Shown here: piece by piece, positions 1-11,878 of the stretch
Layout: each line of letters begins with the position of its first letter
How positions within the stretch are numbered: the first letter of the stretch is position 1
Source of the DNA: Methanomicrobiales archaeon
GTDB taxonomy: Archaea; Halobacteriota; Methanomicrobia; Methanomicrobiales; Methanospirillaceae
DNA length: 11,910 nt
Direction of reading: 5' to 3'
NCBI GenBank assembly: GCA_037137755.1
Contig: JBAXJR010000058.1
Span: forward strand, 1 to 11,910
Notes under the pieces: generated by a model
What the model was told of the DNA's origin: nothing
The model's input: only the letters and a program-made list of their open reading frames with translations
Databases searched by the model: none
Translations under genes and position numbers: made by a program

Positions 1-1938
1 GATGATACCGTACTCTTTTATGAAGGCTCAGTCATCGACATTACCGAGCGCAAGCAGGCCGAAGAAGCATTGCGGGAGAGCGAGGAGAAATACCGCAACC
101 TCTCAATCCTGATGCGCCTGATGTGCGACAATGTGCCGGATATGATCTGGGCAAAAGATCTTGAAAAGCGCTACATCTATGTGAACAGGGCCATCTGCAG
201 TGGTCTGCTCAACGCCATTGATACCGATGAACCGGTTGGAAAGCTGGATATGTTCTTTGCAGAGAGGGAGCGGACATGTCATGCGGATGATCCGGACTGG
301 CATACCTTTGGCGAGATTTGCCGGGACACCGACCAGATCACTATGGATGCCGGCACCCCACAGCAGTTCGATGAGTACGGGAATGTGCAGGGAAAATTCC
401 TCTTTTTAGATGTACGCAAAGCCCCGTTCATTGACGAACAGGGAACAATGATCGGAACGGTAGGCTCAGCCCGGGACATCACTGAGCGGAAGCGGGCGGA
501 GGAGGCGCTACGGGAGAGCGAGGAACTATTACGAGATATCATTGAGAAAAATCCACTGTCAATCCAGATTGTGGACAGGGAGGGGTTCACGCTCAAGGTA
601 AACCCGGCATTCATTCGGCTTTTCGGTTCTGTTCCACCGCCGGATTTCTCGATTATTACGGATATTGTAAAGAGTCACCCTGAACTAGAGAACCACATCT
701 CACGGGTAAAAAACGGGGAACCGGTTAATCTGCCCGATATGAGCTTCAACCCGCACGATATCTATCCGGAACTGCCGGATGTCCCAACCAGGGTGCGGGC
801 AATCATTTTTCCCTTGAATGACAGGCATGGAAAACCACAACGTTTTATTTTCATGCATGACGACATCACCGAACAGCGGCGGGCTGAAGATGCACTGCGG
901 GAGAGCGAGAAGCTTTTGAGCGAGGTCTTTGACAATGCGAACGATGCGGTATTCCTGCTTGAAAGAACCCAAGAGGGTCCCGGTACATACCTTCTTGTGA
1001 ATGATAAAGCTGTCCGGATGCTGGGATATTCAAGAGATGAGCTCCTGGAGATGTCCCCCCGGGATATCGTACCAAGTGATATTGCGAAAAAAATCATGCC
1101 GGATGTCATAAAAAAACTGCTCAAAGACGGGCATGCTACCTTTGAGTCTGCACACCGGCGAAAAGACGGGTGTATCTACCCGATTGAGGTCAGCACCCAT
1201 ACATTCCGGTACAAAGGAAAGGATGTGGATCTCTCCCTTGTCCGCGATATCACCGAACGAAAGCGGGCGGAGGAAGCGATCCTCCAGGCAAACAAGAAAC
1301 TAAATCTTCTCTCGGGTATTACCCGGCATGACATCAACAACCAGCTCCTTGTGCTGAACGGATTCCTGAAATTATTACAAAATAAAGCAACAGACCCGGC
1401 ATATGAAGGCTTTTTCACCCGCATTACGAAGGCAAGTTCGCAGATTTCATCCATGATCCTGTTTACCAAGGAATACGAAGAGATCGGCGTGAAGGCTCCA
1501 ATATGGCAGGACTGCCGCAATCTCGTGGATAATGCGGCAAAGCAGACCCCGCTCGGACAGGTCATGGTGAAAAACGATCTCCCCACCGGTGCGGAAGTTT
1601 TGGCCGACACGCTGATAGTCAAGGTCTTTTATAACCTGATGGACAATGCGGTGAGGTATGGTGGGAAGATCAGGACAATTAGGTTCTCTGCTCTGGAATC
1701 CGGTGATGACCATGTCATCGTGTGCGAGGACGATGGCGAGGGTGTCGTTATTGAAGAGAAAGAGAAGATCTTCGAGCGGGGTTTCGGGAAGAACACCGGG
1801 CTCGGGTTGTTCCTTTCCCGCGAGATCCTCGATATTACCGGCATCACTATTCGTGAAACCAGTGAGCCGGGCAAGGGAGCACGGTTCGAGATAGTGGTGC
1901 CGAAGGGTATGTGGCGTATTGTGGGGAATGGAGAATGA
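1..1938 (+). CDS. Multi-PAS sensor histidine kinase (5'-partial; at least 3 complete PAS/PAC plus the tail of a fourth, HisKA, HATPase_c)
   Basis: Frame is open from base 1 (DDTVLFYEGSVIDITERKQAEEALRESEEKY), so the TTG at 70 is not the true start. Repeated DITERKRAEEALRESE PAS-PAC linkers, H-box ITRHDINNQL (~1318-1347), N-box NLMDNAVRYG, G1 EDDGEG, F/G2 IFERGFGKNTGLGL. Confidence 0.95.
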   Translation, partial: DDTVLFYEGSVIDITERKQAEEALRESEEKYRNLSILMRLMCDNVPDMIWAKDLEKRYIYVNRAICSGLLNAIDTDEPVGKLDMFFAERERTCHADDPDWHTFGEICRDTDQITMDAGTPQQFDEYGNVQGKFLFLDVRKAPFIDEQGTMIGTVGSARDITERKRAEEALRESEELLRDIIEKNPLSIQIVDREGFTLKVNPAFIRLFGSVPPPDFSIITDIVKSHPELENHISRVKNGEPVNLPDMSFNPHDIYPELPDVPTRVRAIIFPLNDRHGKPQRFIFMHDDITEQRRAEDALRESEKLLSEVFDNANDAVFLLERTQEGPGTYLLVNDKAVRMLGYSRDELLEMSPRDIVPSDIAKKIMPDVIKKLLKDGHATFESAHRRKDGCIYPIEVSTHTFRYKGKDVDLSLVRDITERKRAEEAILQANKKLNLLSGITRHDINNQLLVLNGFLKLLQNKATDPAYEGFFTRITKASSQISSMILFTKEYEEIGVKAPIWQDCRNLVDNAAKQTPLGQVMVKNDLPTGAEVLADTLIVKVFYNLMDNAVRYGGKIRTIRFSALESGDDHVIVCEDDGEGVVIEEKEKIFERGFGKNTGLGLFLSREILDITGITIRETSEPGKGARFEIVVPKGMWRIVGNGE

Positions 1939-4900
1939 TTTCCGAAATAATCCGGGTTCTCTACGTTGATGATGAGCTCTCTCTCCTTGACCTTGGCAAA
2001 ACATTCCTGGAGAGAGGAGGCGTTTTCTCCGTTGAGACCTGCTCTTCTGTAAATGATGCCCGGGAACGGCTCAGGAACCAGGATTATGATCTGATCCTCT
2101 CCGATTACCAGATGCCGGAAACTGACGGCCTCGAGTTCCTCAAGGAGCTCAGGGCATCGGATAACCGGACCCCGTTCATAATCTTCACGGGCCGGGGGAG
2201 GGAAGAGGTTGTGATCGAGGCGCTCAACAGCGGTGCAGACTTCTACCTGCAGAAGGGGGGCGATCCCAAATCCCAGTTCACCGAGCTGGCAAACAAGATC
2301 CGGTATGCAGTATCACGCCGGCAGGCAGAGGAGTCTCTTGCCATGAGCGAGGAGAAGTTCCGGGGCATCTTTGATACCGTCAATGACGCGATCCATATCC
2401 ATGCAATTGCCCCGGACGGAAAGCCAGGACAATTCATAGAGGTCAATGAAGTTGCATGCCGGATGCTGCAGTACACCCGGAAAGATCTGCTTGCACTCGG
2501 GCCCCTGGATATGGTAGCAGGCAGCCACAGCCGGCCCCTGGATACTATTCTCGGTGAATTATCAACTACCGGACACACGATCTTCGAGACAGAACACCGG
2601 AGAAAAGACGGGACAGTTGTTCCTGTCGAGATCAACACCCATGTTGTCACCCTCCAGGGAAAACGGGTGATGGTCTCTGTGGTCAGGGACATCAGCGGAC
2701 GGAGGAAGGCCGAAGCAGCATTGCAGGAAAGCGAGGGACGGTTCCGGACGCTTTCCAATGCGGCCATGGAAGGGATCATGATCCACGACCGGGGTGTCAT
2801 TAAGGACTGCAATTCCCGGTTTGCTTCCCTGTTTGGTTATACCCCTCAGGAGATCATCGATCGCAACGGGTTTGAATTCATGATGACGGCAGAATCCCGT
2901 GAAGCCATAACCCGGTGGAGACGGAGTGGTGGAGAAGGTACTATCGATATCACCGGAATCAGGAAAGACGGGACTACGTTCTTTGGCGAGACCGCTTCTG
3001 CCAAACTCCTCTGGATGGGAAAAGAGCACTCCATTGTCCAGATCCGGGATATCAGTGGCCGTAAGCGAGCTGAGGACGAGCTCCGTGCGGCGTATGAGCA
3101 GATCTCAGCAGCCGATGAGGAACTCCGGGACCAGTATGAGGAGCTGGCGAAAAATGAGCAGTTCATCCGCGAGAGCGAGGAAAAGTTCCGGACACTCCTG
3201 GATGCCTCAATCGATGGTATCATGCTGATCGATTTCTCGGGAAGTATCCTGGCATGGAACCCGGCTACAGAGAAGATCTTCGGGATCCCGGCAAACGAGG
3301 CCCTCGGGAGCAATATTGTTGATCTTCAGATCCGCCTGATTGTCCCGGAACACCGGAACCCGGCATATATCGAGGAGTTGCGATCCCGGTTTTCTGCCAC
3401 ATTCCCGGCACTGTTCTCGAGAACATCCCCCCTGTTTCTTGAAGTGGAGGTCATGAATGCGCGTGGACAGCGGATGATCGTCCAACAGGCACTCTACCCG
3501 ATCCAGACCTCTCGCGGTAAACGCATTGGGTGCATTTCGAGAGATGTTACCCAGCAGCGCTCCGCAGAAAAGAGCCTCAGGGAGAGTGAGAATAAATTCA
3601 GGACGCTGTTTGAGAATTCTGGCGATGCAATTATGTTCATCGACCGCGAGGTCGTTCTTGACTGCAACACGAGAACCGAAGTGATTTTTGGAAAAACCCG
3701 GGCACAGATTATCGGGATGTCCCCGGGCGGATTATCCCCGGATTTCCAGCCGGATGGACAATCTTCAGCAGAAACAGCGCTGGAAAAAATGACCGCCGCA
3801 TTCCTGGGAGAGCCTCAGTTCTTCGACTGGGTCCATGTCCGTACCGATGGTTCGCTCTTTGATGCGGAGGTGACCCTGAACCGGGTGGAGGTGGGGGGTA
3901 AATACTACCTCCAGGCGATTGTCCGGGACATAACCGATCGCAAGAAGATGGAGACGGCACTCCGCGAAAGTGAAGAACATTACCGCTCGGTCGTAAACAA
4001 CCAGAGCGACATGATCGCAAGGTTTACCCCGGATGGGATTATCCAGTTTGTCAACGAGTCATACCGTGCGTACTTCACATCCTCTCTCGATGTCAGTGAG
4101 ATCGTGGGGAAGAGCATCCGAAATCTCATGCAGATCAAGAACTATCCTGAGGTGGCGGCATTCCTTGGTTCGCTCACGCCGGAAAATCCCGTCCGCGAGG
4201 CTGAACGCCAGTTTACCGGCAGTGACGGGGAATCTTACTGGCAGACCTGGTCGGTCCGGGCCATCTTCGGTCCGGACCTGAAGGTGACCGAATACCAGGT
4301 TGTCGGCCGGGATATAACGGAACGGAAACGTGCGGAAGAAGCACTTGTTACTGAAAAACAGTTCTCGGATGCGGTCATGGACAGCATTCCGGGTACGTTC
4401 TTTGTTCTTGACGACCAGGGCAATTTTGTCAGGACCAACAAAAATCAGGAGAAACTCATAGGGTATACAGCAGAGGAGATGGTGGGAACAAGTGGGTTTG
4501 CCACCATTGCTGAAGTGGACCGGGATCGCTTAGTTGCCAGGATGCACGAAATCCTGGAGACGGGATATGGCACTGATACTGCACTGGTGATTACCCGTGA
4601 CGGTAGAACGTTCCCGATGCTGCTTACGGCCGTTTCTACCATGATCGGAGGGAAGCGGTATATCATTGGTACCGGTATCGACATTTCCGAGCTAAAAACT
4701 GCCGAGAAGGAACTCCAGGAGAGCGAGGAGCGGTTCCGGGCTCTTTCCGATGCTGCACTCGAAGGGATCATGATCCACAACAAGGGCGTCATCGTAGACT
4801 GCAACCCGCGGTTTGCTGAAATGTTTGGCTATACCCCCGGAGAGATTATTGGCCGTAACGGGTTCGAGTTCATGCTGACTCCGGAATCCCGCGATGCGAT

Positions 4901-6554
4901 ATTCCGCTGGGGAAAGAGCGGGTTTTTGGGTTCAATCGACATCACTGCCATCAGAAAAGACGGGACTCGGTTTTCCGGTGAGACCTCGGCAGCCATGATC
5001 GCCTGGAAGGGAAAATCTCACAATATCGTCCACATGCGGGATATCACCGACCGCAAACGGGTTGAGGAGATGCTTCGCCAGAACGAGAAACAGATCCGGG
5101 AGATCTTTGGTTGGGTAAATGATGGAATCCAGATCCATGATATTGAACCGGATGGGAAACCTGGGAAGTTTATCGAAGTAAACGAAGTTGCCTGCCGAAT
5201 GCTGCAATATACCCGCGAAGAACTGCTGGAGATAGGGCCCCTTGATATTTCCACCGAATATCACAGCAGACCACTTAATGATATCCTCATGGAATTATCC
5301 ACGTACGGCCACTCGATCTTCGAAACCGAACACAGGAGGAAAGACGGGATACTTGTTCCGGTTGAGGTCAATACCCACGTGGTAAGTCTGCTGGGAAAAA
5401 AGGTGATGGTTGGCGTGGTCCGGGATATTACCGGGCGTAAACAGGCTGAAGAAGCACTGCGGGAAAGCGAGGAGCGATATCGTTCGTTGTATGTTGACAA
5501 CAGGGATGCAATCATGATATTGTCGCCTGATAGTGGATTTCTGACGGGTAACCCTGCAACGATCCAGTTGTTCGGATGTCGGGACGAGCAGGACTTTAAG
5601 GTTCGTACACCAGTGTCGTTGTCTCCTGAGTACCAGCCGGACGGAATTCTATCCAGAGACAAGTCCCAGGAAATGATGAGCCTTGCCCTGGAGAAGGGCT
5701 CTCACTTCTTTGAGTGGACACATCGCAGGATTGACGGGAGAGATTTTCCGGCCACGGTCCTGTTATCGCGGCTTGAGAGCGGGAGCACTTGTCTTCTCCA
5801 GGCAACAATCCGGGATATTAGCGAGCGGAAAGAACTCGAAAATGAGATGAAGTACCATGAGCAGGAACTTATGCAATTTTCAATGTCACTCGCTACAGCA
5901 AATAAGAAATTAGCCCTCCTATCAGGGATCACACGGCATGATATTCTTAACCAGCTTACCGTGCTGATAGGGTATCTTGAACTATTGGAAATAAAACAAC
6001 CAGACCCTGCGTTCAGTTCATATTTTAACAAGATCACCACCGCTGCTGAACGGATACAAGCGATGATCAAGTTTACTAAAACATATGAGGGTATCGGTGT
6101 CAATGCTCCTATCTGGCAGAATTCCCGGACATTAGTGGACACAGCCGCAAAAGATGTGGCCTTAGGCGAAATCAGGCTGGTCAATGATCTCCCTTCTGAT
6201 ATGACGGTATTTGCGGACCAGTTGATTGTCAAAGTATTTTTCAACCTGATGGACAACGCTGTACGGCACGGCGAGAAGATTACGACCATCCGGTTCTCTG
6301 TTGAAGAATCTGGTGATGAACATATCATTCTCTACGAGGATGACGGTGTGGGTATCCCGGCTGATGAAAAAGAGAAGATCTTCGAGCGTGGGTTTGGAAA
6401 GAACACCGGTCTCGGGTTATTCCTGTCCCGCGAGATCCTTGCTATCACCGGCATTACAATCAAAGAGATTGGCGAGCCTGGGGAAGGGGCAAGGTTCGAG
6501 ATGACGGTGCCGAAAGGAATGTGGCGGATGAACCCGGGTTCTGATCAAAGATAG
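1935..6554 (+). CDS. Hybrid sensor kinase: N-terminal receiver, 9 PAS/PAC domains, HisKA, HATPase_c
   Basis: REC motifs VLYVDDE, LILSDYQMP (Asp codon 2103-2105), FTGRG, YLQKG; nine PAS modules each ending in D(I/V)(T/S); H-box ITRHDILNQL; NLMDNAVRHG, EDDGVG, FERGFGKNTGLGL. Start moved from 1911 to ATG 1935 because it forms an ATGA overlap with the upstream stop (1936-1938). Confidence 0.95.
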   Translation: MISEIIRVLYVDDELSLLDLGKTFLERGGVFSVETCSSVNDARERLRNQDYDLILSDYQMPETDGLEFLKELRASDNRTPFIIFTGRGREEVVIEALNSGADFYLQKGGDPKSQFTELANKIRYAVSRRQAEESLAMSEEKFRGIFDTVNDAIHIHAIAPDGKPGQFIEVNEVACRMLQYTRKDLLALGPLDMVAGSHSRPLDTILGELSTTGHTIFETEHRRKDGTVVPVEINTHVVTLQGKRVMVSVVRDISGRRKAEAALQESEGRFRTLSNAAMEGIMIHDRGVIKDCNSRFASLFGYTPQEIIDRNGFEFMMTAESREAITRWRRSGGEGTIDITGIRKDGTTFFGETASAKLLWMGKEHSIVQIRDISGRKRAEDELRAAYEQISAADEELRDQYEELAKNEQFIRESEEKFRTLLDASIDGIMLIDFSGSILAWNPATEKIFGIPANEALGSNIVDLQIRLIVPEHRNPAYIEELRSRFSATFPALFSRTSPLFLEVEVMNARGQRMIVQQALYPIQTSRGKRIGCISRDVTQQRSAEKSLRESENKFRTLFENSGDAIMFIDREVVLDCNTRTEVIFGKTRAQIIGMSPGGLSPDFQPDGQSSAETALEKMTAAFLGEPQFFDWVHVRTDGSLFDAEVTLNRVEVGGKYYLQAIVRDITDRKKMETALRESEEHYRSVVNNQSDMIARFTPDGIIQFVNESYRAYFTSSLDVSEIVGKSIRNLMQIKNYPEVAAFLGSLTPENPVREAERQFTGSDGESYWQTWSVRAIFGPDLKVTEYQVVGRDITERKRAEEALVTEKQFSDAVMDSIPGTFFVLDDQGNFVRTNKNQEKLIGYTAEEMVGTSGFATIAEVDRDRLVARMHEILETGYGTDTALVITRDGRTFPMLLTAVSTMIGGKRYIIGTGIDISELKTAEKELQESEERFRALSDAALEGIMIHNKGVIVDCNPRFAEMFGYTPGEIIGRNGFEFMLTPESRDAIFRWGKSGFLGSIDITAIRKDGTRFSGETSAAMIAWKGKSHNIVHMRDITDRKRVEEMLRQNEKQIREIFGWVNDGIQIHDIEPDGKPGKFIEVNEVACRMLQYTREELLEIGPLDISTEYHSRPLNDILMELSTYGHSIFETEHRRKDGILVPVEVNTHVVSLLGKKVMVGVVRDITGRKQAEEALRESEERYRSLYVDNRDAIMILSPDSGFLTGNPATIQLFGCRDEQDFKVRTPVSLSPEYQPDGILSRDKSQEMMSLALEKGSHFFEWTHRRIDGRDFPATVLLSRLESGSTCLLQATIRDISERKELENEMKYHEQELMQFSMSLATANKKLALLSGITRHDILNQLTVLIGYLELLEIKQPDPAFSSYFNKITTAAERIQAMIKFTKTYEGIGVNAPIWQNSRTLVDTAAKDVALGEIRLVNDLPSDMTVFADQLIVKVFFNLMDNAVRHGEKITTIRFSVEESGDEHIILYEDDGVGIPADEKEKIFERGFGKNTGLGLFLSREILAITGITIKEIGEPGEGARFEMTVPKGMWRMNPGSDQR

Positions 6555-6792
6555 GGTGGTGATGAACAAACCCGGTGACCGTATTCATTCTCCTCCGCTC
6601 GCTCGATAACCTGCTCCTCGCACGGATAGTGTCCCGGTGTTCCTGGTAATAGTCCCTGTTTTTTTTCTGTATCGCATCAGGATGGCAATCATAGTACCGT
6701 TTGTACCGTGCACGTCGTTTTTCCAGGGATGACTTATCCCGGGAAACCACCATCGCCACAGCAAGAGTAACGGTAGATCTCCCCACCCTCAT
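6460..6792 (-). CDS. Small basic hypothetical protein with R/K/Y-rich repeats (110 aa), 3' end uncertain
   Basis: ATG at 6792 overlaps the upstream stop (ATGA, 6792-6789) and follows SD-like GAGGGTGA. KRRARYKRYYDCHPDAIQKKNRDYYQEHRDTIRARSR is a basic helical repeat of a kind common in viral nucleic-acid-binding proteins. The last 95 nt overlap the convergent kinase. Confidence 0.6.
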   Translation of the reverse strand: MRVGRSTVTLAVAMVVSRDKSSLEKRRARYKRYYDCHPDAIQKKNRDYYQEHRDTIRARSRLSSERRRMNTVTGFVHHHPIFDQNPGSSATFLSAPSSRTLPLPQARQSL

Positions 6793-6953: not shown

Positions 6954-7081
6954 GGGACCACCCCCATACGACCGGTCCCGCCACACACCGGGCATGGCTC
7001 GGGAAGTTTCCGTTTCCGGAAGGACCGGCCGGTACCACGACAGACCACGCAATCAATTTCCCGGTGATACCGATCGGTCAC
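6950..7081 (-). CDS. 43-aa protein with two CxxCxGxG motifs (DnaJ-type zinc finger); not in the ORF track
   Basis: Manual translation from GTG 7081: MTDRYHREIDCVVCRGTGRSFRKRKLPEPCPVCGGTGRMGVVP*. GTGA overlap with the rep stop (7078-7080), ATGA overlap with the next gene, SD-like GGCGGTG upstream. Confidence 0.8.
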   Translation of the reverse strand: MTDRYHREIDCVVCRGTGRSFRKRKLPEPCPVCGGTGRMGVVP

Positions 7082-10000
7082 TGGCCGGCACCGCCTTTCA
7101 CTGAGCCAGATGACCTAGCCTCCCGGTCATAACAGTCCTGGCAAAGATGTACCCCCGCTTCCTTGTCGATGAACACCGCTTTCCCGAGGTTGCACACCGA
7201 GCAGCGGCCGATATCTTTCGATATCCTCACCATCCGCCCGATGACAATAGTCCCGGGCAGGGGTGGAGCCTTAGTCTGCTCCTTCCTCCTGGCCATCTCG
7301 TAACATTTCTTACAGATCCGTATTGCCATCTTGTCCTTGCGGGCGTTGCGGGCCGGTGTTACTTTCTCAATATACTCTGCACCCCTCCGGCCACAGGCTG
7401 CACACTTGGTACGTTGTTCGGAGCAGTCGAGTGGTTTGAAATCCCGACACGAGATCACGATTGGACTTGCCTGCAGAAGGGGCAACTTGCCTGCAGTTTC
7501 CTGCATCTTTCCTGCAGTTTGCTGCAGTTGCAGGCACATGATTCGGGGATCTGGCGGGGCCGGTTCTGGTAAAGGAGATAGTTTGTCTGACTTTCGATTT
7601 GACTTGCCTGCAATTTCAGGATCATAGAGAGAGTCGTGTGTGGTATCTTGTGCATCATCGTGGGGCCCCATGCGTTCTGATTTGCAGGCAACTACTCTGT
7701 TACTTACACATAAGTGTGTGTAATTATCTTTAGTTTGAGAATCCACGGCCCAATTATCTGTTGCAATGTTGCCTGCAGTTGCAGGCAAGTCAAAATTGGC
7801 ATGAATGCATAAACATGGGTTCCCGCTTTCCATTTGAGAATCAGAGGTATCTGAATCGTTTGCGAAGTTGACGGAATTTGTTCCTGCAGAAACAGGATTG
7901 CAGGCAAGTCGGGGCCTTGTGTCAAAGCCTTCATCGCCATCATCGTTTCCATCGATCCACACACCGCCGCCCGAGCACCAGGAGTGATACAATACCTGGT
8001 CAAAGGTGTAGGCGTTTGCCCGTCTCCGCATAGAAATCCCTGAAATTTCTTCTTCGCTGACTACGGTCCTGTCAGAGAATGAAATCGACGGGCACTTTTC
8101 CAGCAGTCCCGAATAAGTCGCACCGCGACTGGCGTACCCGTGCATGACCTTATAAATGGCATGATATGACAGACCGGTTGCTTTCTGGAGCATCGATATG
8201 GTAAACTCCGACCACCCTCCTTTTTGAATGGTAATGACCATGTCGGATTCCTTCTTTGTCAGCTTTGTCGCCTGGCCCCCGGTCGTCCCATTCAATAGAC
8301 CATACAATTTCACGGCATCATCGAAATCCTCCCGGGTGGCGACGATACATGACACCCCATTGGCCTCGATCCGTTCCCGCTGCTGAAACCGGATCACGGC
8401 ATTTGACTTGATGAGGTCCAGTAACATCTCCGGGTTTCTCCGGTTATCATTCGCCTGGAATTTTATCTTGTCTGCGAACGGGATGACAACATAGAACCGC
8501 TCGGCCCCGATCAACTCCCACATAGCACGACATACCAGCACCTGCGGCCGTTCCTCTGCCCCCTGCGGCAAGACCCGGCTTTGTTGTAGTACCCTTGCGA
8601 GGACCCTGTTGTCCTGCTCTGGAGTGTCATCTATCCAGCAGGTGAGCATCCGGTTGAAGACCTGGTCATCGCCGGACCCTTCGACCTTCGCCACCCACCA
8701 GATGCACCGCTCCGGTATGGTGCATACCTGCCCCTTCCGGTCCTTGTTCACCGTCCGGTAGAGGAATGGTTTCCGGAACGATGTGGTGACACCCTTGAGG
8801 ATCTCGGACATATCTTCGGACAGGCTGGTGTCATCGAGGACGATGGCCATACCGGGCTGCAGGCCTTCCATGTAGAACAAGGCCTTGTTGGACATGGCCC
8901 CGGATATCCTGAACCGTTCCGGGACCTGCTTCAACATGGTCGTGAACGTATGACTTTTCCCTTTGCCGCTTTCGCCGGTAACTGATACGTGCAGGCCGTT
9001 GGTGTTGATGACTGACCGGCTTGCGAGCGATAGGATAAGACATTCAGCAGCGGTCTCATCGCCTTCATGGTCGAGGGCAAAGGCCTTGAGCATCCCGCCT
9101 TTCGGATCCCCGTGTTGCAGGACCGCCGTTGCTTCCCCGACGCCCTCCATCGTACTAAACGACGGGGCCGGAGGTGGCCCGCCAGGTGGCGGCCGAGGGT
9201 TGCTGCTGTTTTTTCGTTTTCCTTTCGGTTCGTAACGGTCGCGGAGTTCATCCCAGTGCTGTTTCCCGCTACCACCACACGAGGCATGGTGACACCCGGC
9301 GAAAATCCCACCGCTCACGAACTGGATTGCAAAGGCACCATCCTTGTGAGCACTGGAGAACGGGCACTCATCCAGGTTGTACAGGGTCCCTCCTTCGTAT
9401 GGTTTCTGACTGGCGACACCAAGCCCATGGTCACTGAGCCATTTCGGTAGGTCAAGGGTACGTTCAGGCTGGCCCCCGGCCCGTGGCCGGGCCGCTGCCG
9501 GTGCAGCGGGGGAGCTCGGAAGAGCGCCGGCCAGCCGTTCGAACTGCACCAGAGTTATCACCCCAGCACATTCCGGGGTGTCGATTATCCGGGCCCTGCG
9601 GTGAGGCCTGCTCCTGGTACTGTCGCCCTTCCGTGATACGGTCCCGTAAAGTTTCCAGATCCGTGCAGCATTGTGGTTCGCGGTATCGATGGTTGCTACA
9701 CCGTCAGAGAATATCGTGGATAGTGTTTCAAGACAGTGCTTCACCAGGTCCCGGGATGGATCGTCATTCGGCAGGTCAATCCGGTAGAGCAGGTGTGCAC
9801 CATTTCCTGAATCTGCCATGACCGGCATCGGCCATCCGTGGTCTTCGCTGAGAAATGTTGCAACCTTCACGGCCATGTCAAGGGCTGCCTGGTGCTCTTC
9901 ATCGGTTGAGGATACACCAGAGGGCCGGATAGGATCGATATCTACCGGGAACCACCGACGCCGGATGATGTCTGCGTCAGCCGTGGTCGCGTCCTTCTTC

Positions 10001-10239
10001 GAAAGGCGCATCTTGATCCGGTTCGCCCGCCGGGAGAGCAGGGTGGGGTTCACCTCGTTCAGGGTGACATAGATCCCCTGAACCGTGCCAATGCCATCAA
10101 GCGCTGATACTTTTGCCGCCAGCTCCTGGTGCGAGTCAAAATAACCGGAGGCCATGCCATCGTCGGTTATCACCCGCACTTCGATAACATGGTCCGGGGC
10201 AAAAAGGACCGAGGCTGATGTTGTGAGGTCATCGGTCAT
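7078..10239 (-). CDS. Replication protein: AEP-superfamily primase(-polymerase), Zn-binding domain, AAA+ (MCM-like) helicase, low-complexity linker and two C-terminal C4 zinc fingers
   Basis: AEP motifs VDID (~9934-9945), SGNGAH (9793-9810) and IDTANHNAARIWKLYGT; CPFSSAH...CHHASC Zn site; Walker A GESGKGKS (8953-8976); Walker B IVLDD; putative Arg finger FNRM; MCM-like lid RRNPEMLLDLIKSNA...ATREDFDDAVKLY; C-terminal CAAC...CKKC and CSVC...CQDC. Confidence 0.85.
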   Translation of the reverse strand: MTDDLTTSASVLFAPDHVIEVRVITDDGMASGYFDSHQELAAKVSALDGIGTVQGIYVTLNEVNPTLLSRRANRIKMRLSKKDATTADADIIRRRWFPVDIDPIRPSGVSSTDEEHQAALDMAVKVATFLSEDHGWPMPVMADSGNGAHLLYRIDLPNDDPSRDLVKHCLETLSTIFSDGVATIDTANHNAARIWKLYGTVSRKGDSTRSRPHRRARIIDTPECAGVITLVQFERLAGALPSSPAAPAAARPRAGGQPERTLDLPKWLSDHGLGVASQKPYEGGTLYNLDECPFSSAHKDGAFAIQFVSGGIFAGCHHASCGGSGKQHWDELRDRYEPKGKRKNSSNPRPPPGGPPPAPSFSTMEGVGEATAVLQHGDPKGGMLKAFALDHEGDETAAECLILSLASRSVINTNGLHVSVTGESGKGKSHTFTTMLKQVPERFRISGAMSNKALFYMEGLQPGMAIVLDDTSLSEDMSEILKGVTTSFRKPFLYRTVNKDRKGQVCTIPERCIWWVAKVEGSGDDQVFNRMLTCWIDDTPEQDNRVLARVLQQSRVLPQGAEERPQVLVCRAMWELIGAERFYVVIPFADKIKFQANDNRRNPEMLLDLIKSNAVIRFQQRERIEANGVSCIVATREDFDDAVKLYGLLNGTTGGQATKLTKKESDMVITIQKGGWSEFTISMLQKATGLSYHAIYKVMHGYASRGATYSGLLEKCPSISFSDRTVVSEEEISGISMRRRANAYTFDQVLYHSWCSGGGVWIDGNDDGDEGFDTRPRLACNPVSAGTNSVNFANDSDTSDSQMESGNPCLCIHANFDLPATAGNIATDNWAVDSQTKDNYTHLCVSNRVVACKSERMGPHDDAQDTTHDSLYDPEIAGKSNRKSDKLSPLPEPAPPDPRIMCLQLQQTAGKMQETAGKLPLLQASPIVISCRDFKPLDCSEQRTKCAACGRRGAEYIEKVTPARNARKDKMAIRICKKCYEMARRKEQTKAPPLPGTIVIGRMVRISKDIGRCSVCNLGKAVFIDKEAGVHLCQDCYDREARSSGSVKGGAGQ
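7464..7910. repeat. Dispersed direct and inverted iteron-like repeats, consensus GACTTGCCTGCA, inside the rep gene
   Basis: Exact TTGCCTGCA on + at 7467, 7487, 7604, 7769 and its reverse complement TGCAGGCAA at 7683, 7780, 7899. Degenerate copies at 7496-7505, 7507-7516, 7517-7526, 7529-7536, 7881-7888. Perfect 16-bp inverted pair at 7598-7613 and 7779-7794. Confidence 0.9.
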
Positions 10240-10426
10240 TATCCCCCGTTCCAGGCGGATCGCTTATTACGTCAGTTATGAGGAGAAAACAAAACCCTTC
10301 GTTCTTAAACCGGCGGGGATTAGCCGTGTGACAAATCTCCCCTTTACAGAATACCGTACCATTCGAATAGGAGATGTACGGGCAGATCTTCCGCGGTACC
10401 GGTGTATTCGGTATCTCACACCCCAT
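10229..10426 (-). CDS. 65-aa Cys-rich hypothetical protein (probable zinc binder)
   Basis: MGCEIPNTPVPRKICPYISYSNGTVFCKGEICHTANPRRFKNEGFCFLL...; ATG at 10426 with upstream GAGGT; 11-nt overlaps with both the nuclease stop and the rep start. Confidence 0.65.
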   Translation of the reverse strand: MGCEIPNTPVPRKICPYISYSNGTVFCKGEICHTANPRRFKNEGFCFLLITDVISDPPGTGDNDR

Positions 10427-10772
10427 GATCGCTGACCTCGCAGATCCCGCCAGGTAAAATCGAATAGAAACGCCATCCCTTGTTAAGGGTCCAGACCCAC
10501 AGCTCCACGTTTGAACCGACCGGTCTGGCCATGCGGCGCAGTGCTTCAATATCACGCCGGTATGCCTGGGCGATAAGAGCCGTCCCGTCGATGTGCGTTT
10601 TGTTCCGCTTCACCTGGACGAGGACCGGGTGGCCAGAGTCCTGCCATGCGACCAGGTCGATCGGTGAGAGTGATCCGGCATTCCGGACCACCTGGTACCC
10701 TCCGTCAACGAGGAGGTCCCGGGCGAGGTATTCTACTTCCCGCCCTTTTGTATAGGTTGTCCGGGCCGGCAT
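10416..10772 (-). CDS. Hjc-like Holliday junction resolvase / PD-(D/E)xK endonuclease (118 aa)
   Basis: YTKGREVE..A..LL..GGYQVVRNAGS.SPIDLVAW....VLVQVK follows the archaeal Hjc pattern (G..E, R.AGS, DL.A, E/QxK). ATG at 10772 follows SD-like GGGGGCTGA, 5 nt after the upstream stop. Confidence 0.8.
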   Translation of the reverse strand: MPARTTYTKGREVEYLARDLLVDGGYQVVRNAGSLSPIDLVAWQDSGHPVLVQVKRNKTHIDGTALIAQAYRRDIEALRRMARPVGSNVELWVWTLNKGWRFYSILPGGICEVSDHGV

Positions 10773-10777
10773 GGTGT

Positions 10778-11191
10778 TCAGCCCCCTGGACAACGGGAAA
10801 ATGTTGATGAGGGGATCATTGTCCCGACCTTCTTCTTTCTCATGCATGCACAGCCGTGGGTGCAGGCTTCCAGGTCGCGGTCTGAGCAATCGTATCGACC
10901 GAAACACGAAGGGCGGCAGAACACCAGCAGGGCGGTATCCAGCCGGTTGATCTCTGACTGGACCGGGGCCAGTTCGGCGTGCATCCGTTCAATATTCCTG
11001 GACCTGATCTGTTGTTCCAGGACCAGGTGGACTGACCGTGCTGCCATAAGCGCGTCTTTCTGTTCCTGGTCGCTGTCGATCACCGGCGAAAGACACTTGT
11101 CATTGCAATTGCATACATGGAATACGGCAGTGGTATTCTCGTTCTTGGTAGTTTGTGAATCGCTGCTGCCGTTACCTATTGCTTCATTCAT
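10778..11191 (-). CDS. Hypothetical protein, coiled coil flanked by Cys-rich segments (137 aa)
   Basis: ATG 11191 in ATGA overlap with the upstream stop, GAGGT SD upstream; CNCNDKC and CRPSC...C...CTHGCAC clusters around a heptad-like helix. Confidence 0.7.
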   Translation of the reverse strand: MNEAIGNGSSDSQTTKNENTTAVFHVCNCNDKCLSPVIDSDQEQKDALMAARSVHLVLEQQIRSRNIERMHAELAPVQSEINRLDTALLVFCRPSCFGRYDCSDRDLEACTHGCACMRKKKVGTMIPSSTFSRCPGG

Positions 11192-11465: not shown

Positions 11466-11603
11466 ACAAACTAATACGTGTGTTACAAATTTAAAAATTG
11501 TCATGCGTGTATCGTATTGTAACACAAATGTATTACCTGCAATTTTTGTAACGCGCAAACTTTTATGTATATATAACTATCAATCTGTGTTACGGTGTAT
11601 GAC
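11466..11603. promoter_or_regulatory. AT-rich divergent promoter/operator region
   Basis: TATA-like TTTAAA at 11490-11495 (for the minus operon) and TATATATAA at 11568-11576 (for the plus gene). Inverted repeat TGTGTTACAA 11479-11488 / TTGTAACACA 11517-11526; further half-sites TTGTAAC 11546-11552 and TGTGTTAC 11586-11593. Confidence 0.75.
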
Positions 11604-11849
11604 ATGAGTAACAACGCGGATGATACCATCCATGTCAGGCTTGGGTCGGCAGAGAAAAAACAGCTGGTCGTAAAATTTGCAAAAGAAAACGGCTACCCCG
11701 ACACGAGCGAGTTCATACGCTACCTGATAGATAACGAAATGGGGTCCCCGCAGGAGGAGACAGAAGATCCGTTTATAATAAAATTGCGGGCTTCCCTGAA
11801 GAAACCTGAAGTAAAAAAGATAATTCATGAAATATTAAAAGAGAAATAA
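11604..11849 (+). CDS. 81-aa ribbon-helix-helix transcriptional regulator with C-terminal helical extension
   Basis: TIHVRLGSAEKKQLVVKFAKENGYPDTSEFIRYLID fits the RHH pattern (I.VRL strand, A...G turn, SEFIR helix). ATG 11604 preferred over GTG 11595, ~28 nt after the TATA box. Confidence 0.8.
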   Translation: MSNNADDTIHVRLGSAEKKQLVVKFAKENGYPDTSEFIRYLIDNEMGSPQEETEDPFIIKLRASLKKPEVKKIIHEILKEK

Positions 11850-11852
11850 CCG

Positions 11853-11878
11853 TTTTTTATTCAGTTGCCAGTTTTTTT
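11853..11878 (+). terminator. Putative archaeal oligo-T terminator
   Basis: T6 (11853-11858) and T7 (11872-11878) tracts directly after the RHH stop codon. Confidence 0.45.

What the first reader, a model, noticed from the sequence alone, without database searches (positions are those of the whole stretch)
7464..7910. Candidate replication origin embedded in the coding sequence of the primase-helicase gene
Seen: seven exact copies of TTGCCTGCA (4 forward, 3 reverse) plus about five degenerate copies in ~450 bp. They fall in different reading frames and orientations (translated as AGK, LQLQ, LPA, ACN/ACK), so they are DNA-level repeats and not protein repeats. A perfect 16-bp inverted pair TTTGACTTGCCTGCAA (7598-7613 / 7779-7794) brackets an AT-rich tract (~7695-7765) and a 10-bp palindrome TGGGGCCCCA (7661-7670). 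The protein here is a low-complexity linker between the helicase region and the C-terminal zinc fingers. Known: iterons inside the initiator gene occur in lambda O. Inference: this is a dual-use coding/origin segment recognised by the protein's own C-terminal region.
Basis: partly seen in the sequence, partly recalled or inferred. Interest (0 to 1): 0.85.

Follow-up and report, generated by a model that had tools for sequence, protein, structure and literature searches.

The report
Replication origin inside a Rep gene
A cluster of short DNA repeats around an easily melted stretch, lying inside the protein-coding sequence of the replication gene of a small mobile element in a methane-producing archaeon, is very probably that element's replication origin.

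Summary
TTGCCTGCA occurs 7 times exactly, plus 5 degenerate copies, on both strands, only within 7467-7907. It is the only such cluster in the 2.64-Mb genome.

The repeats lie in the translated linker (aa 762-932) between an HTH and four CxxC zinc-finger motifs. The gene is a 1053-aa primase-helicase Rep of a roughly 7-kb integrase-bearing element in a Methanomicrobiales genome.

Among 133 full-length homologues (96 clusters at 90% identity), 80 of 96 carry their own repeat array at the same place.
- The motif differs by lineage.
- The layout is conserved: clusters at 8-13-nt spacing, single sites about 75-87 nt apart in alternating orientation, and inverted clusters on either side.
- The least stable 50-nt duplex of the whole gene lies in the linker in 129 of 133 genes.
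- Repeat columns are more conserved than the rest of the linker.
- The frame stays open in all 70 genes tested.

Two short-linker relatives carry the same kind of array outside the gene.

An iteron-type origin is the best reading (about 0.7). Recognition by the zinc fingers is not supported; the upstream HTH is weakly favoured. This is a new archaeal variant of the phage-lambda-O type arrangement. No structure prediction could be run.

The parts
7078..10239 (-). Rep gene, 1053 aa (P0001). It has an N-terminal primase-polymerase-like region, a P-loop helicase/ATPase, an HTH, a variable linker and C-terminal zinc fingers.
   Evidence: ORF and translation. 2185 homologues at E<=0.001 among the candidates scored, carrying precomputed PF27228. 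Family profile against the pMTBMA4 ORF: probability 98.4% over aa 378-718. N-terminal 1-340 is 32-44% identical to proteins on viral contigs. Weak phrog_19 hit at aa 14-128.
7444..7956 (-). Linker-coding segment (aa 762-932), hypervariable in protein sequence. It carries the whole repeat array.
   Evidence: Bounded by the columns of W761 and D933. Paralogue matches stop at about aa 775 and resume at about 925. GC is lower than in the rest of the gene.
7467..7537 (.). Right-hand (3' in coding sense) iteron cluster. Five direct copies on + at 7467, 7487, 7497, 7508 and 7518, with 10-20-nt spacing, plus one inverted copy at 7529-7537 (-).
   Evidence: Tandem Repeats Finder gives periods of 10 and 21 at 7482-7529.
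7604..7612 (+). Single iteron, exact copy.
   Evidence: It lies 79 nt from the next copy at 7683.
7683..7691 (-). Single iteron, exact copy, in the opposite orientation.
7693..7765 (.). AT-rich tract, the candidate DNA-unwinding element. The least stable 50-nt duplex of the gene is 7693-7742.
   Evidence: dG -57.6 against a gene mean of -73.6 (sd 4.4). The same holds for 129 of 133 homologues. One search gives the GC profile.
7769..7788 (.). Palindromic iteron pair TTGCCTGCA-GT-TGCAGGCAA: + copy at 7769-7777 and - copy at 7780-7788.
   Evidence: I12. L011 has CCTGCAAC/GTTGCAGG at the homologous position.
7880..7907 (.). Left-hand (5' in coding sense) iterons: a degenerate + copy at 7880-7888 and an exact - copy at 7899-7907.
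8134..8208 (-). Codes for the helix-turn-helix (aa 678-702, EFTISMLQKATGLSYHAIYKVMHGY), the favoured candidate reader of the iterons.
   Evidence: Aligns with the HTH-like stretch of the pMTBMA4 protein. Domain order primase-helicase-HTH-Zn finger is described for arCOG07809 in PMC4158269. Residue 697 covaries with an iteron base.
7081..7443 (-). C-terminal domain (aa 933-1053) with four invariant CxxC pairs: C946/C949, C976/C979, C1013/C1016 and C1033/C1036.
   Evidence: Invariant columns in 110 sequences.
8953..8976 (-). Walker A motif GESGKGKS (aa 422-429).
   Evidence: Invariant columns. The label 'Walker A' is from recall.
10416..10907 (-). Upstream ORF of 163 aa, a PD-(D/E)xK / Holliday-junction-resolvase-like nuclease that is a conserved partner of Rep.
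   Evidence: Pfam Mrr_cat 3.9e-05 and Hjc 9.6e-04. A homologue is present in 49 of 80 loci. An HJR endonuclease associated with arCOG07809 is described in PMC4158269.
6527..6576 (.). Probable end of the mobile element, next to the stop of the PAS histidine-kinase gene at 6554.
   Evidence: Contigs of other runs diverge at L133 11095 and 11139-11144, which correspond to these window positions. This is inferred; no att repeat of 12 nt or more was found.

Best explanation
The 7467-7907 segment is an iteron-type replication origin of a small (about 7 kb) integrase-bearing element. It is embedded in the translated linker of the element's own primase-helicase Rep gene.

Twelve copies of a 9-bp site (consensus around ACTTGCCTGCAGTT) form two oppositely oriented groups. 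Single sites 79-86 nt apart lie between them, around the least stable duplex of the gene (7693-7742).

Inferred mechanism: Rep binds the sites through a sequence-reading domain, most likely the HTH encoded just upstream (aa 678-702). It assembles on both sides, melts the AT-rich tract, loads its own helicase and primes with its N-terminal primase.

The same DNA is read through as a tolerant, low-complexity tether between the HTH and the zinc fingers. Each lineage of the family has its own iteron variant, which would keep co-resident elements from cross-talking.

Shown here: a DNA-level, position-conserved, lineage-specific repeat array with a central low-stability tract inside an open frame. 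Inferred: Rep binding, which domain binds, and origin firing.
For: 1. The cluster is non-random and unique in the genome.

2. Family test. The both-strand 8-mer repeat excess of the linker exceeds every same-length control window of the same gene in:
- 60 of 70 genome-derived genes;
- 50 of 63 metagenome-derived genes;
- 80 of 96 clusters after collapsing at 90% identity.

3. The motif differs by lineage (TTGCCTGCA, CCTGCAAC, TTTCAGCA, TTTACAGCA, TTTGCAGCA, CCTTCAGCA, CCTTCTGCA, ACTTCCGCA, GAGCGGAA and others) while the layout is conserved. Spacing between neighbouring sites in 52 genes peaks at 8-13 nt (79 cases at 11) and at 73-89 nt, the latter mostly in opposite orientation.

4. The least stable 50-nt window of the whole gene lies in the linker in 129 of 133 genes, although the linker is 13.4% of gene length. 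Sites are split about equally on either side.

5. Iteron columns are invariant more often than other linker columns in 4 of 4 clades: 0.80 vs 0.55, 0.86 vs 0.34, 0.83 vs 0.50 and 0.49 vs 0.17.

6. Copies use all three codon phases and both strands. The coding frame has 0 stops in 9746 linker codons, while the other five frames have 213-931 and are open in at most 7 of 70 genes.

7. Motif density is 18.06 per kb in linkers against 0.314 per kb in 853 kb of surrounding DNA. The motif was chosen on the linker, so the inside figure is biased upward.

8. Natural separation. Two short-linker paralogues in one Methanospirillum lacunae chromosome lack the in-gene array. Each has an intergenic array of GAGCGGGA sites with the same alternating layout and AT tracts, 0.45-2.3 kb downstream.

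9. The helicase-HTH module is homologous to the large ORF of plasmid pMTBMA4/pME2001, which is used whole as a replicon (PMC8609365 passages).

10. The element is small and plasmid-like: integrase, small ORFs, nuclease, Rep. No other repeat array was found in its AT-rich intergenic region.
Against: - No experiment and no read evidence. Contigs of four metagenome runs showed neither a circular junction nor an empty site.
- 16 of 96 clusters have 4 or fewer sites and 16 of 96 fail the excess test. These include two paralogues in this same genome, C10 and C54.
- The linker's AT tract is only the third most AT-rich 60-nt window of this window.
- The homologues are related, so counts across them are not independent events.
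- The site-finding seed was optimised on each linker.
- Nearest-neighbour energies were typed from recall.
- The domain that reads the sites is unresolved. Whole-segment correlations (0.41 C-terminal, 0.36 post-helicase) and tree label changes (22-24 on all four trees) do not discriminate. The R/K697 signal was picked post hoc among 234 columns: 11 independent pairs, median sign-test p 0.031.
- The primase assignment rests on weak hits.
Confidence: 0.7

Rival explanations
1. The array is a Rep-binding (or other protein-binding) control site rather than the origin. It could be an operator for autoregulation, a copy-number or incompatibility ('handcuffing') site, or a centromere-like partition site. 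Initiation would then occur elsewhere in the element.
For: Clusters of direct repeats at 10-11-nt phasing also typify partition and incompatibility sites (recalled). More AT-rich intergenic DNA exists at 11527-11870. Three loci have small extra clusters outside the gene. An orphan array without a nearby Rep gene exists in M. lacunae at G001:C1:3428588-3428927.
Against: The gene-wide stability minimum sits between oppositely oriented site groups in 129 of 133 genes. That is the anatomy of an origin rather than an operator. The intergenic AT-rich region has no repeat array. No partition ATPase was seen in the roughly 7-kb element. Iteron origins commonly serve control as well, so this rival partly overlaps the main reading.
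Confidence: 0.17
2. The iterons are an origin but are read by the C-terminal zinc-finger domain.
For: The zinc-finger domain is encoded immediately after the array. Its whole-segment identity has the highest rank correlation with motif similarity, 0.41.
Against: Adjacency alone would give that correlation. C59 and C58 share 73% of the C-terminal domain but differ in iteron, while C59 and L080 share 44% and have the same iteron. No C-terminal column matches the iteron split as well as residue 697 in the HTH. The pMTBMA4 homologue has no CxxC pairs but has a comparable array.
Confidence: 0.2
3. The repeats are a by-product of a low-complexity or repetitive protein linker, or of chance, with no function at DNA level.
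For: The linker protein is low-complexity and hypervariable.
Against: Copies lie on both strands and in all three phases. 0 of 200 shuffles reach the count. Site positions are kept while the motif changes. Iteron columns are more conserved than the rest of the linker. Equivalent arrays occur in non-coding DNA in short-linker variants.
Confidence: 0.02
4. The inverted repeats are sites for a recombinase: the integrase attachment site, or an invertible segment that switches the C-terminus.
For: A tyrosine integrase is encoded about 2 kb upstream of Rep. Long inverted pairs are present.
Against: The array is intact inside integrated copies flanked by host genes, so it is not the crossover site. 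The reverse frames of the linker are open in only 1-2 of 70 genes, so inversion would break the gene. No inversion or skip joint with adequate support was seen in four runs.
Confidence: 0.04

Closest known systems
Phage lambda ori-lambda inside gene O
   Same: Iterons plus an adjacent AT-rich tract lie within the initiator's own coding sequence. The initiator binds them to start theta replication (PMC3349717 passages).
   Different: Lambda has four 18-bp direct iterons followed by a 38-bp AT-rich tract, and O is not a helicase or primase. Here about 12 sites of 9 bp in two orientations flank the AT-rich tract, in an archaeal primase-helicase. There is no sequence relationship.
SaPI Rep / PriRep and their ori (Staphylococcus aureus pathogenicity islands)
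   Same: This is an integrated small element with a self-loading helicase, sometimes fused to a primase. It has 6-12 short iterons with an AT-rich centre and opposite orientation on either side, read by a winged helix after the ATPase domain (PMC9371898 passages).
   Different: The SaPI ori lies just downstream of the rep ORF, not inside it. Its iterons are 5-6 nt. It is bacterial, and no homology was tested or claimed. The two short-linker Methanospirillum variants have the SaPI-like downstream placement.
arCOG07809 (Mpal_2033-type) small integrated elements of Methanomicrobia (Makarova et al. 2014, PMC4158269)
   Same: The domain order is the same (primase, helicase, HTH, Zn finger), as are the associated Holliday-junction-resolvase-like endonuclease and integrase, the small size and the host order (passages).
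   Different: That paper describes the proteins and gene neighbourhoods. 'Origin of replication' occurs 0 times in its main text. I did not compare Mpal_2033 itself with P0001.
Plasmid pME2001 / pMTBMA4 of Methanothermobacter marburgensis
   Same: Its 804-aa ORF is homologous over the helicase and HTH. It is an autonomous replicon (PMC8609365 passages). It has an array of CCTGCAGAA / TTCTGCAGG sites in both orientations.
   Different: Its array is intergenic, upstream of the gene. The protein has no zinc fingers, and no N-terminal match to P0001 was found. The passages I read do not report a mapped origin.
pRN1 ORF904 (Sulfolobus), RepA_N plasmids, phage N15 RepA, phage P4 alpha
   Same: In pRN1, a prim-pol/helicase Rep has essential sequence next to its gene (abstract start in the listing). 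From recall, origins lie inside the rep gene in RepA_N plasmids and in N15 repA, and P4 alpha binds iterons through its C-terminal domain.
   Different: The pRN1 element lies downstream of the gene. The RepA_N, N15 and P4 statements are recalled, not seen here; Weaver 2009 was not held.

Membership tests
Iteron-type replication origin | Several copies of a short site clustered in a few hundred bp, beyond chance | tested here: met
   7 exact and 5 degenerate copies in 441 nt. 0 of 200 shuffles reach 7. It is the only such cluster in the genome.
Iteron-type replication origin | Adjacent AT-rich, easily melted tract | tested here: met
   The least stable 50-nt duplex of the gene is at 7693-7742, and it lies in the linker in 129 of 133 homologues. 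The energy parameters were recalled.
Iteron-type replication origin | Site sequence specific to each initiator lineage | tested here: met
   18 motif classes among 52 genes with 6 or more sites. Site positions are conserved while the motif changes.
Iteron-type replication origin | Residues of the initiator's DNA-binding domain covary with the site | tested here: inconclusive
   R/K697 against CAGCA is concordant in 76 of 88. Among 11 independent pairs, 6.3 go the same way and 0.2 the opposite way, median p 0.031; the residue was chosen post hoc. Whole-domain tests do not discriminate.
Iteron-type replication origin | The initiator binds the sites, and the segment supports replication | not testable with these tools
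   Needs EMSA or footprinting and a replication assay.
Origin embedded in the initiator's coding sequence (lambda O type) | The array lies inside an ORF that is kept open | tested here: met
   0 stops in 9746 linker codons of 70 genes. The other frames have 213-931 stops. These genes were selected as full-length ORFs; most of the 13 dropped genes end at contig ends.
Origin embedded in the initiator's coding sequence (lambda O type) | The array sits in a variable inter-domain linker | tested here: met
   It lies between W761 and D933. The region is unalignable among homologues, and order-wide matches mostly end at aa 770-780.
arCOG07809-type primase-helicase-HTH-Zn-finger Rep of small integrated elements | Four-domain order, partner HJR-like endonuclease, integrase, Methanomicrobia host | tested here: met
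   - Walker A and four CxxC pairs are invariant.
- The HTH aligns to the pMTBMA4 homologue.
- A nuclease ORF is present in 49 of 80 loci.
- An integrase is present in L133, L017 and L031.
- All named homologues are Methanomicrobiales.
The primase domain rests on weak hits.
arCOG07809-type primase-helicase-HTH-Zn-finger Rep of small integrated elements | Sequence similarity to the named type member Mpal_2033 | not tested
   The Mpal_2033 sequence was not fetched. The assignment rests on matching architecture and host order as described in PMC4158269.
SaPI-type Rep/ori | Ori immediately downstream of the rep ORF, read by a winged helix in the C-terminal domain | tested here: not met
   In this window the array is inside the ORF, with a further domain after it. 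Only the two short-linker variants have a downstream array. It works like a SaPI ori but is not a member of that family.

The most novel reading that the evidence does not exclude
The placement is adaptive rather than accidental. The HTH is encoded 60-250 codons upstream of its own binding sites. With coupled transcription and translation, nascent Rep would be delivered in cis onto the origin that the polymerase is just opening.

The HTH residue and the iteron base (R/K697 with A versus C/T) co-diversify as an incompatibility-escape module. That would let up to nine related elements share one archaeal chromosome.

The zinc-finger domain, made only after the origin has been traversed, would act as a checkpoint or tether.
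Probability: 0.15. Interest if true: 0.8.

Novelty: new variant of a known kind. Interest (0 to 1): 0.62.

Why it matters
Origins of archaeal plasmids and integrated elements are mostly unmapped. In the passages I read, pME2001, a relative used as a replicon for methanogen genetics, has no mapped origin.

This finding gives a precise, testable origin prediction for an element family found in 98 of 201 sampled genomes of the order, and in 27 of 40 genera. It supplies about 18 natural specificity variants and two natural 'array moved out of the gene' controls.

It could provide compatible replicon and origin pairs for genetic tools in Methanomicrobiales. It also offers a clean system to study how one DNA stretch satisfies coding and cis-acting constraints at once.

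Tried and rejected
- Structure prediction of Rep was asked for four times and each time answered 'being made ready'. No model, fold search or complex prediction was made.
- Pfam and NCBIfam gave nothing for Rep or its parts, apart from weak AAA and zinc-finger hints. PDB sequence searches gave nothing usable.
- The Atlas search on aa 625-770 gave only a weak MarR/IclR lead at 0.87.
- Whole-segment covariation and tree label counts did not separate the candidate reading domains. Naive mutual information was dominated by linker and multi-state columns.
- No tRNA, no att direct repeat of 12 nt or more, and no terminal overlap indicating circular contigs among the loci.
- Contigs of runs X1, X3, X6 and X7 laid on L133 gave no circular or empty-site joint. 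One weak joint, 10369 to 10435 with a side of 21, was discounted. A loose-end 30-mer matched none of the 213 loci.
- No Rfam family in the window.
- Viral contigs hold only the N-terminal primase part. The phage collection likewise.
- The scan's earlier notes held nothing for this genome.
- PF27228 is in no paper searched. Weaver 2009 is not held.
- The sigma-70 promoter scan was not run because the host is an archaeon.
Full report
**Observation.** The window is a whole 11,910-base contig (C58) of a 2.64-Mb, 106-contig genome. TTGCCTGCA occurs exactly 7 times, all between 7467 and 7907, four on + and three on -. Shuffles gave a mean of 0.10, and none of 200 reached 7. Five more copies with one or two mismatches lie in the same stretch. 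Genome-wide there are 47 copies, and no other place has three within 500 nt. The copies fall in all three codon phases.

**The gene and the element.** The repeats lie in ORF 7078-10239 (-), 1053 aa.
- Alignment of 20 and then 110 homologues shows conserved blocks at aa 1-761 and 933-1053 and an unalignable stretch between them.
- The conserved parts include a VDIDP / DSGNGAH region, a Walker A GESGKGKS, an HTH-like stretch at 678-702 and four invariant CxxC pairs.
- Curated libraries are nearly silent.
- The precomputed domain PF27228 is named after an ORF of the Methanothermobacter plasmid pMTBMA4. A profile comparison with that ORF gives 98.4% probability over aa 378-718, HTH included.
- The N-terminal 340 residues have 32-44% relatives on viral contigs.
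- Makarova et al. 2014 describe this architecture (primase, helicase, HTH, Zn finger) as arCOG07809. They place it in small integrated elements of Methanomicrobia with an HJR-like endonuclease and integrases (PMC4158269, passages).
- Here the nuclease-like ORF is at 10416-10907 and has homologues in 49 of 80 loci.
- A metagenome contig, L133, overlaps the window over 5494 nt with 4 mismatches. It extends the window and shows host genes, then a tyrosine integrase, small ORFs, the nuclease and Rep.
- Contigs of other runs diverge at positions equivalent to window 6527-6576. The element is therefore about 7 kb (inferred).
- The PAS histidine kinases at 1-6554 are host flank.

**Do homologues have their own arrays?** Yes.
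- From 80 genome loci, all named ones Methanomicrobiales, plus four copies in this genome, 83 genes were taken. Of these, 70 were full-length with both linker anchors. Most of the 13 dropped run off contig ends.
- The both-strand 8-mer repeat excess of the linker exceeded every same-length window elsewhere in the same gene in 60 of 70.
- A second set from metagenome contigs gave 50 of 63.
- The sets overlap and contain near-duplicates. Collapsed at 90% identity, 80 of 96 clusters pass. Of the 96, 53 have 7 or more sites and 16 have 4 or fewer.
- Linker GC is lower than the rest of the gene in 63 of 63. By my reading of the table it is lower in 69 of 70.
- Of the three other full-length copies in this genome, C59 has a clear array of its own (TTTCAGCA / TGCTGAAA around an AT-rich tract). 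C10 and C54 have only weak ones.

**Anatomy.** The motif changes between lineages: 18 classes among 52 genes. The layout does not. A typical order is ++++-+-+---, with a left cluster at 8-11-nt spacing, single sites at about +86, +79 and +75 nt in alternating orientation, then an inverted right cluster.
- Neighbour spacings peak at 8-13 nt (79 at 11) and at 73-89 nt.
- In the window the same 86/79/86 spacing links 7769/7780, 7683, 7604 and the 7467-7537 cluster.
- A relative at 71% protein identity has CCTGCAAC at the homologous positions.
- The least stable 50-nt duplex of the entire gene lies in the linker in 129 of 133 genes, with sites on both sides. Here it is 7693-7742 (energy parameters recalled).
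- Iteron columns are invariant more often than other linker columns in four of four clades.
- The coding frame has no stop in 9746 linker codons, while the other frames have 213-931.
- Outside the linkers the motifs are about 57 times rarer. Only three loci have small extra clusters (the motif was chosen on the linker).

**Natural controls.** Methanospirillum variants have a 40-aa acidic linker without an array.
- In the M. lacunae chromosome, one such gene is followed 2 kb downstream by a non-coding array of GAGAGCGGGA sites in both orientations with AT tracts.
- A second short-linker paralogue (70% identity) has nine such sites 450-745 nt past its stop, with about 70-75-nt spacing.
- The motif belongs to the class found inside the linkers of other Methanospirillum-type genes.
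- The array is therefore a separable DNA element.
- pMTBMA4 also has CCTGCAGAA / TTCTGCAGG sites in both orientations in its intergenic region.

**Who reads the sites?** This is unresolved.
- Whole-domain correlations and tree counts do not discriminate.
- C-terminal identity does not follow iteron type in the C58 / C59 / L080 comparison.
- One HTH residue, 697, is R with CAGCA-type sites and K otherwise in 76 of 88 genes. That is the best split among all columns of both candidate domains. Independent pairs go 6.3 to 0.2, median p 0.031. I noticed it by eye first, so it is a lead rather than a result.
- The pMTBMA4 protein has the HTH and no zinc fingers.

**Mechanism and rivals.** The best reading is an iteron origin with a central unwinding element, used by a self-loading primase-helicase. 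It is as in SaPI elements (PMC9371898 passages) but placed inside the gene as in lambda O (PMC3349717 passages).
- A control or partition site without origin function is the main rival.
- A protein-level artefact and a recombinase site are largely excluded.

**Novelty.** Origins inside initiator genes are known in bacteria and phages. The element family was described in 2014 without any mention of an origin. My searches found no description of this array. They cover open-access papers only, and I read no supplements.

**Limits.**
- There is no experiment, no structure model and no evidence of an excised circle.
- The homologues are not independent.
- Several labels (Walker A, prim-pol motifs, RepA_N, N15 and P4 precedents) are from recall.

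Noticed in passing
L213 (NC_014409.1, pMTBMA4) 4088-4227 and 3265-3470: The Methanothermobacter plasmid whose ORF is homologous to the helicase-HTH part has an intergenic array: three direct CCTGCAGAA-like sites and two inverted TTCTGCA sites. TTCTGCAGG with up to 1 mismatch gives 7 matches against 1.05 expected, and 5 of them lie within 4093-4395. Poly-A repeats at 10-nt period lie nearby. This is a candidate for the plasmid's origin, which the passages I read do not report as mapped.
   Followed up: partly
G001:C1 1889066-1889247, 1900577-1900758, 2956282-2956517, 3428588-3428927: The M. lacunae chromosome has four clusters of GAGAGCGGGA. Two lie downstream of short-linker Rep genes. One is a copy with the same internal spacing 11.5 kb from the first. 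One is an orphan with no Rep match nearby. The genome holds at least nine Rep paralogues.
   Followed up: partly
window 8149-8151 (codon of K697) and homologues: An R/K switch in the HTH tracks an A versus C/T switch in the iteron, including within close relatives: SYSSIYRTIK with TTTGCAGCA against SYSSIYKTVK with TTTGCTGCA.
   Followed up: partly
13 assemblies with two or more classified copies: Co-resident Rep copies have entirely different iteron cores in 9 of 13 assemblies. This fits avoidance of incompatibility, but no null expectation was computed, and metagenome bins can be mixtures.
   Followed up: partly
L039, linker of 801 nt: One homologue has a linker twice the usual length with a very large repeat excess (297 against a control mean of 27.6; motif CCAGGGGA). 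It may be a duplicated array.
   Followed up: no
window 7661-7670: The palindrome TGGGGCCCCA (peptide MGPH) is kept in C58, L009, L012 and L011 but not in L010. Its role is unknown.
   Followed up: no
window 11527-11870 (L133 5480-5900): This is the most AT-rich DNA of the window (0.73-0.80 over 60 nt), between the integrase gene (on L133, beyond the window's end) and the small ORFs upstream of Rep. It has no iteron array and is probably a promoter region.
   Followed up: partly
G000:C11:19627-20508: This genome also has a 304-aa ORF matching only the end of the helicase region and the zinc-finger domain of Rep (69% identity over aa 925-1053). It is a truncated or stand-alone form.
   Followed up: no
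C10 (L002), C54 (L004) and 16 of 96 clusters: Some copies have few or no recognisable sites although the ORF is intact and the linker is still AT-rich. They may be decaying origins in immobilised copies.
   Followed up: no
L026 and L145, about 260-330 nt downstream of Rep; L177, about 1.1 kb upstream: Small extra clusters of the cognate iteron (3 sites within 200 nt) lie outside the gene.
   Followed up: no
L017 9102-9647, L031 9018-9650, L069 10671-14423: In other loci Rep is followed by DNA methyltransferase genes or by a 1250-aa DUF6079 protein, so cargo varies between elements.
   Followed up: no
L133 7521-11254 (table 2): Summed contig depth over Rep is several-fold higher than over the host flank in four lake or freshwater runs. 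This is most simply explained by paralogous elements sharing conserved Rep segments, so it is not a copy-number measure.
   Followed up: no
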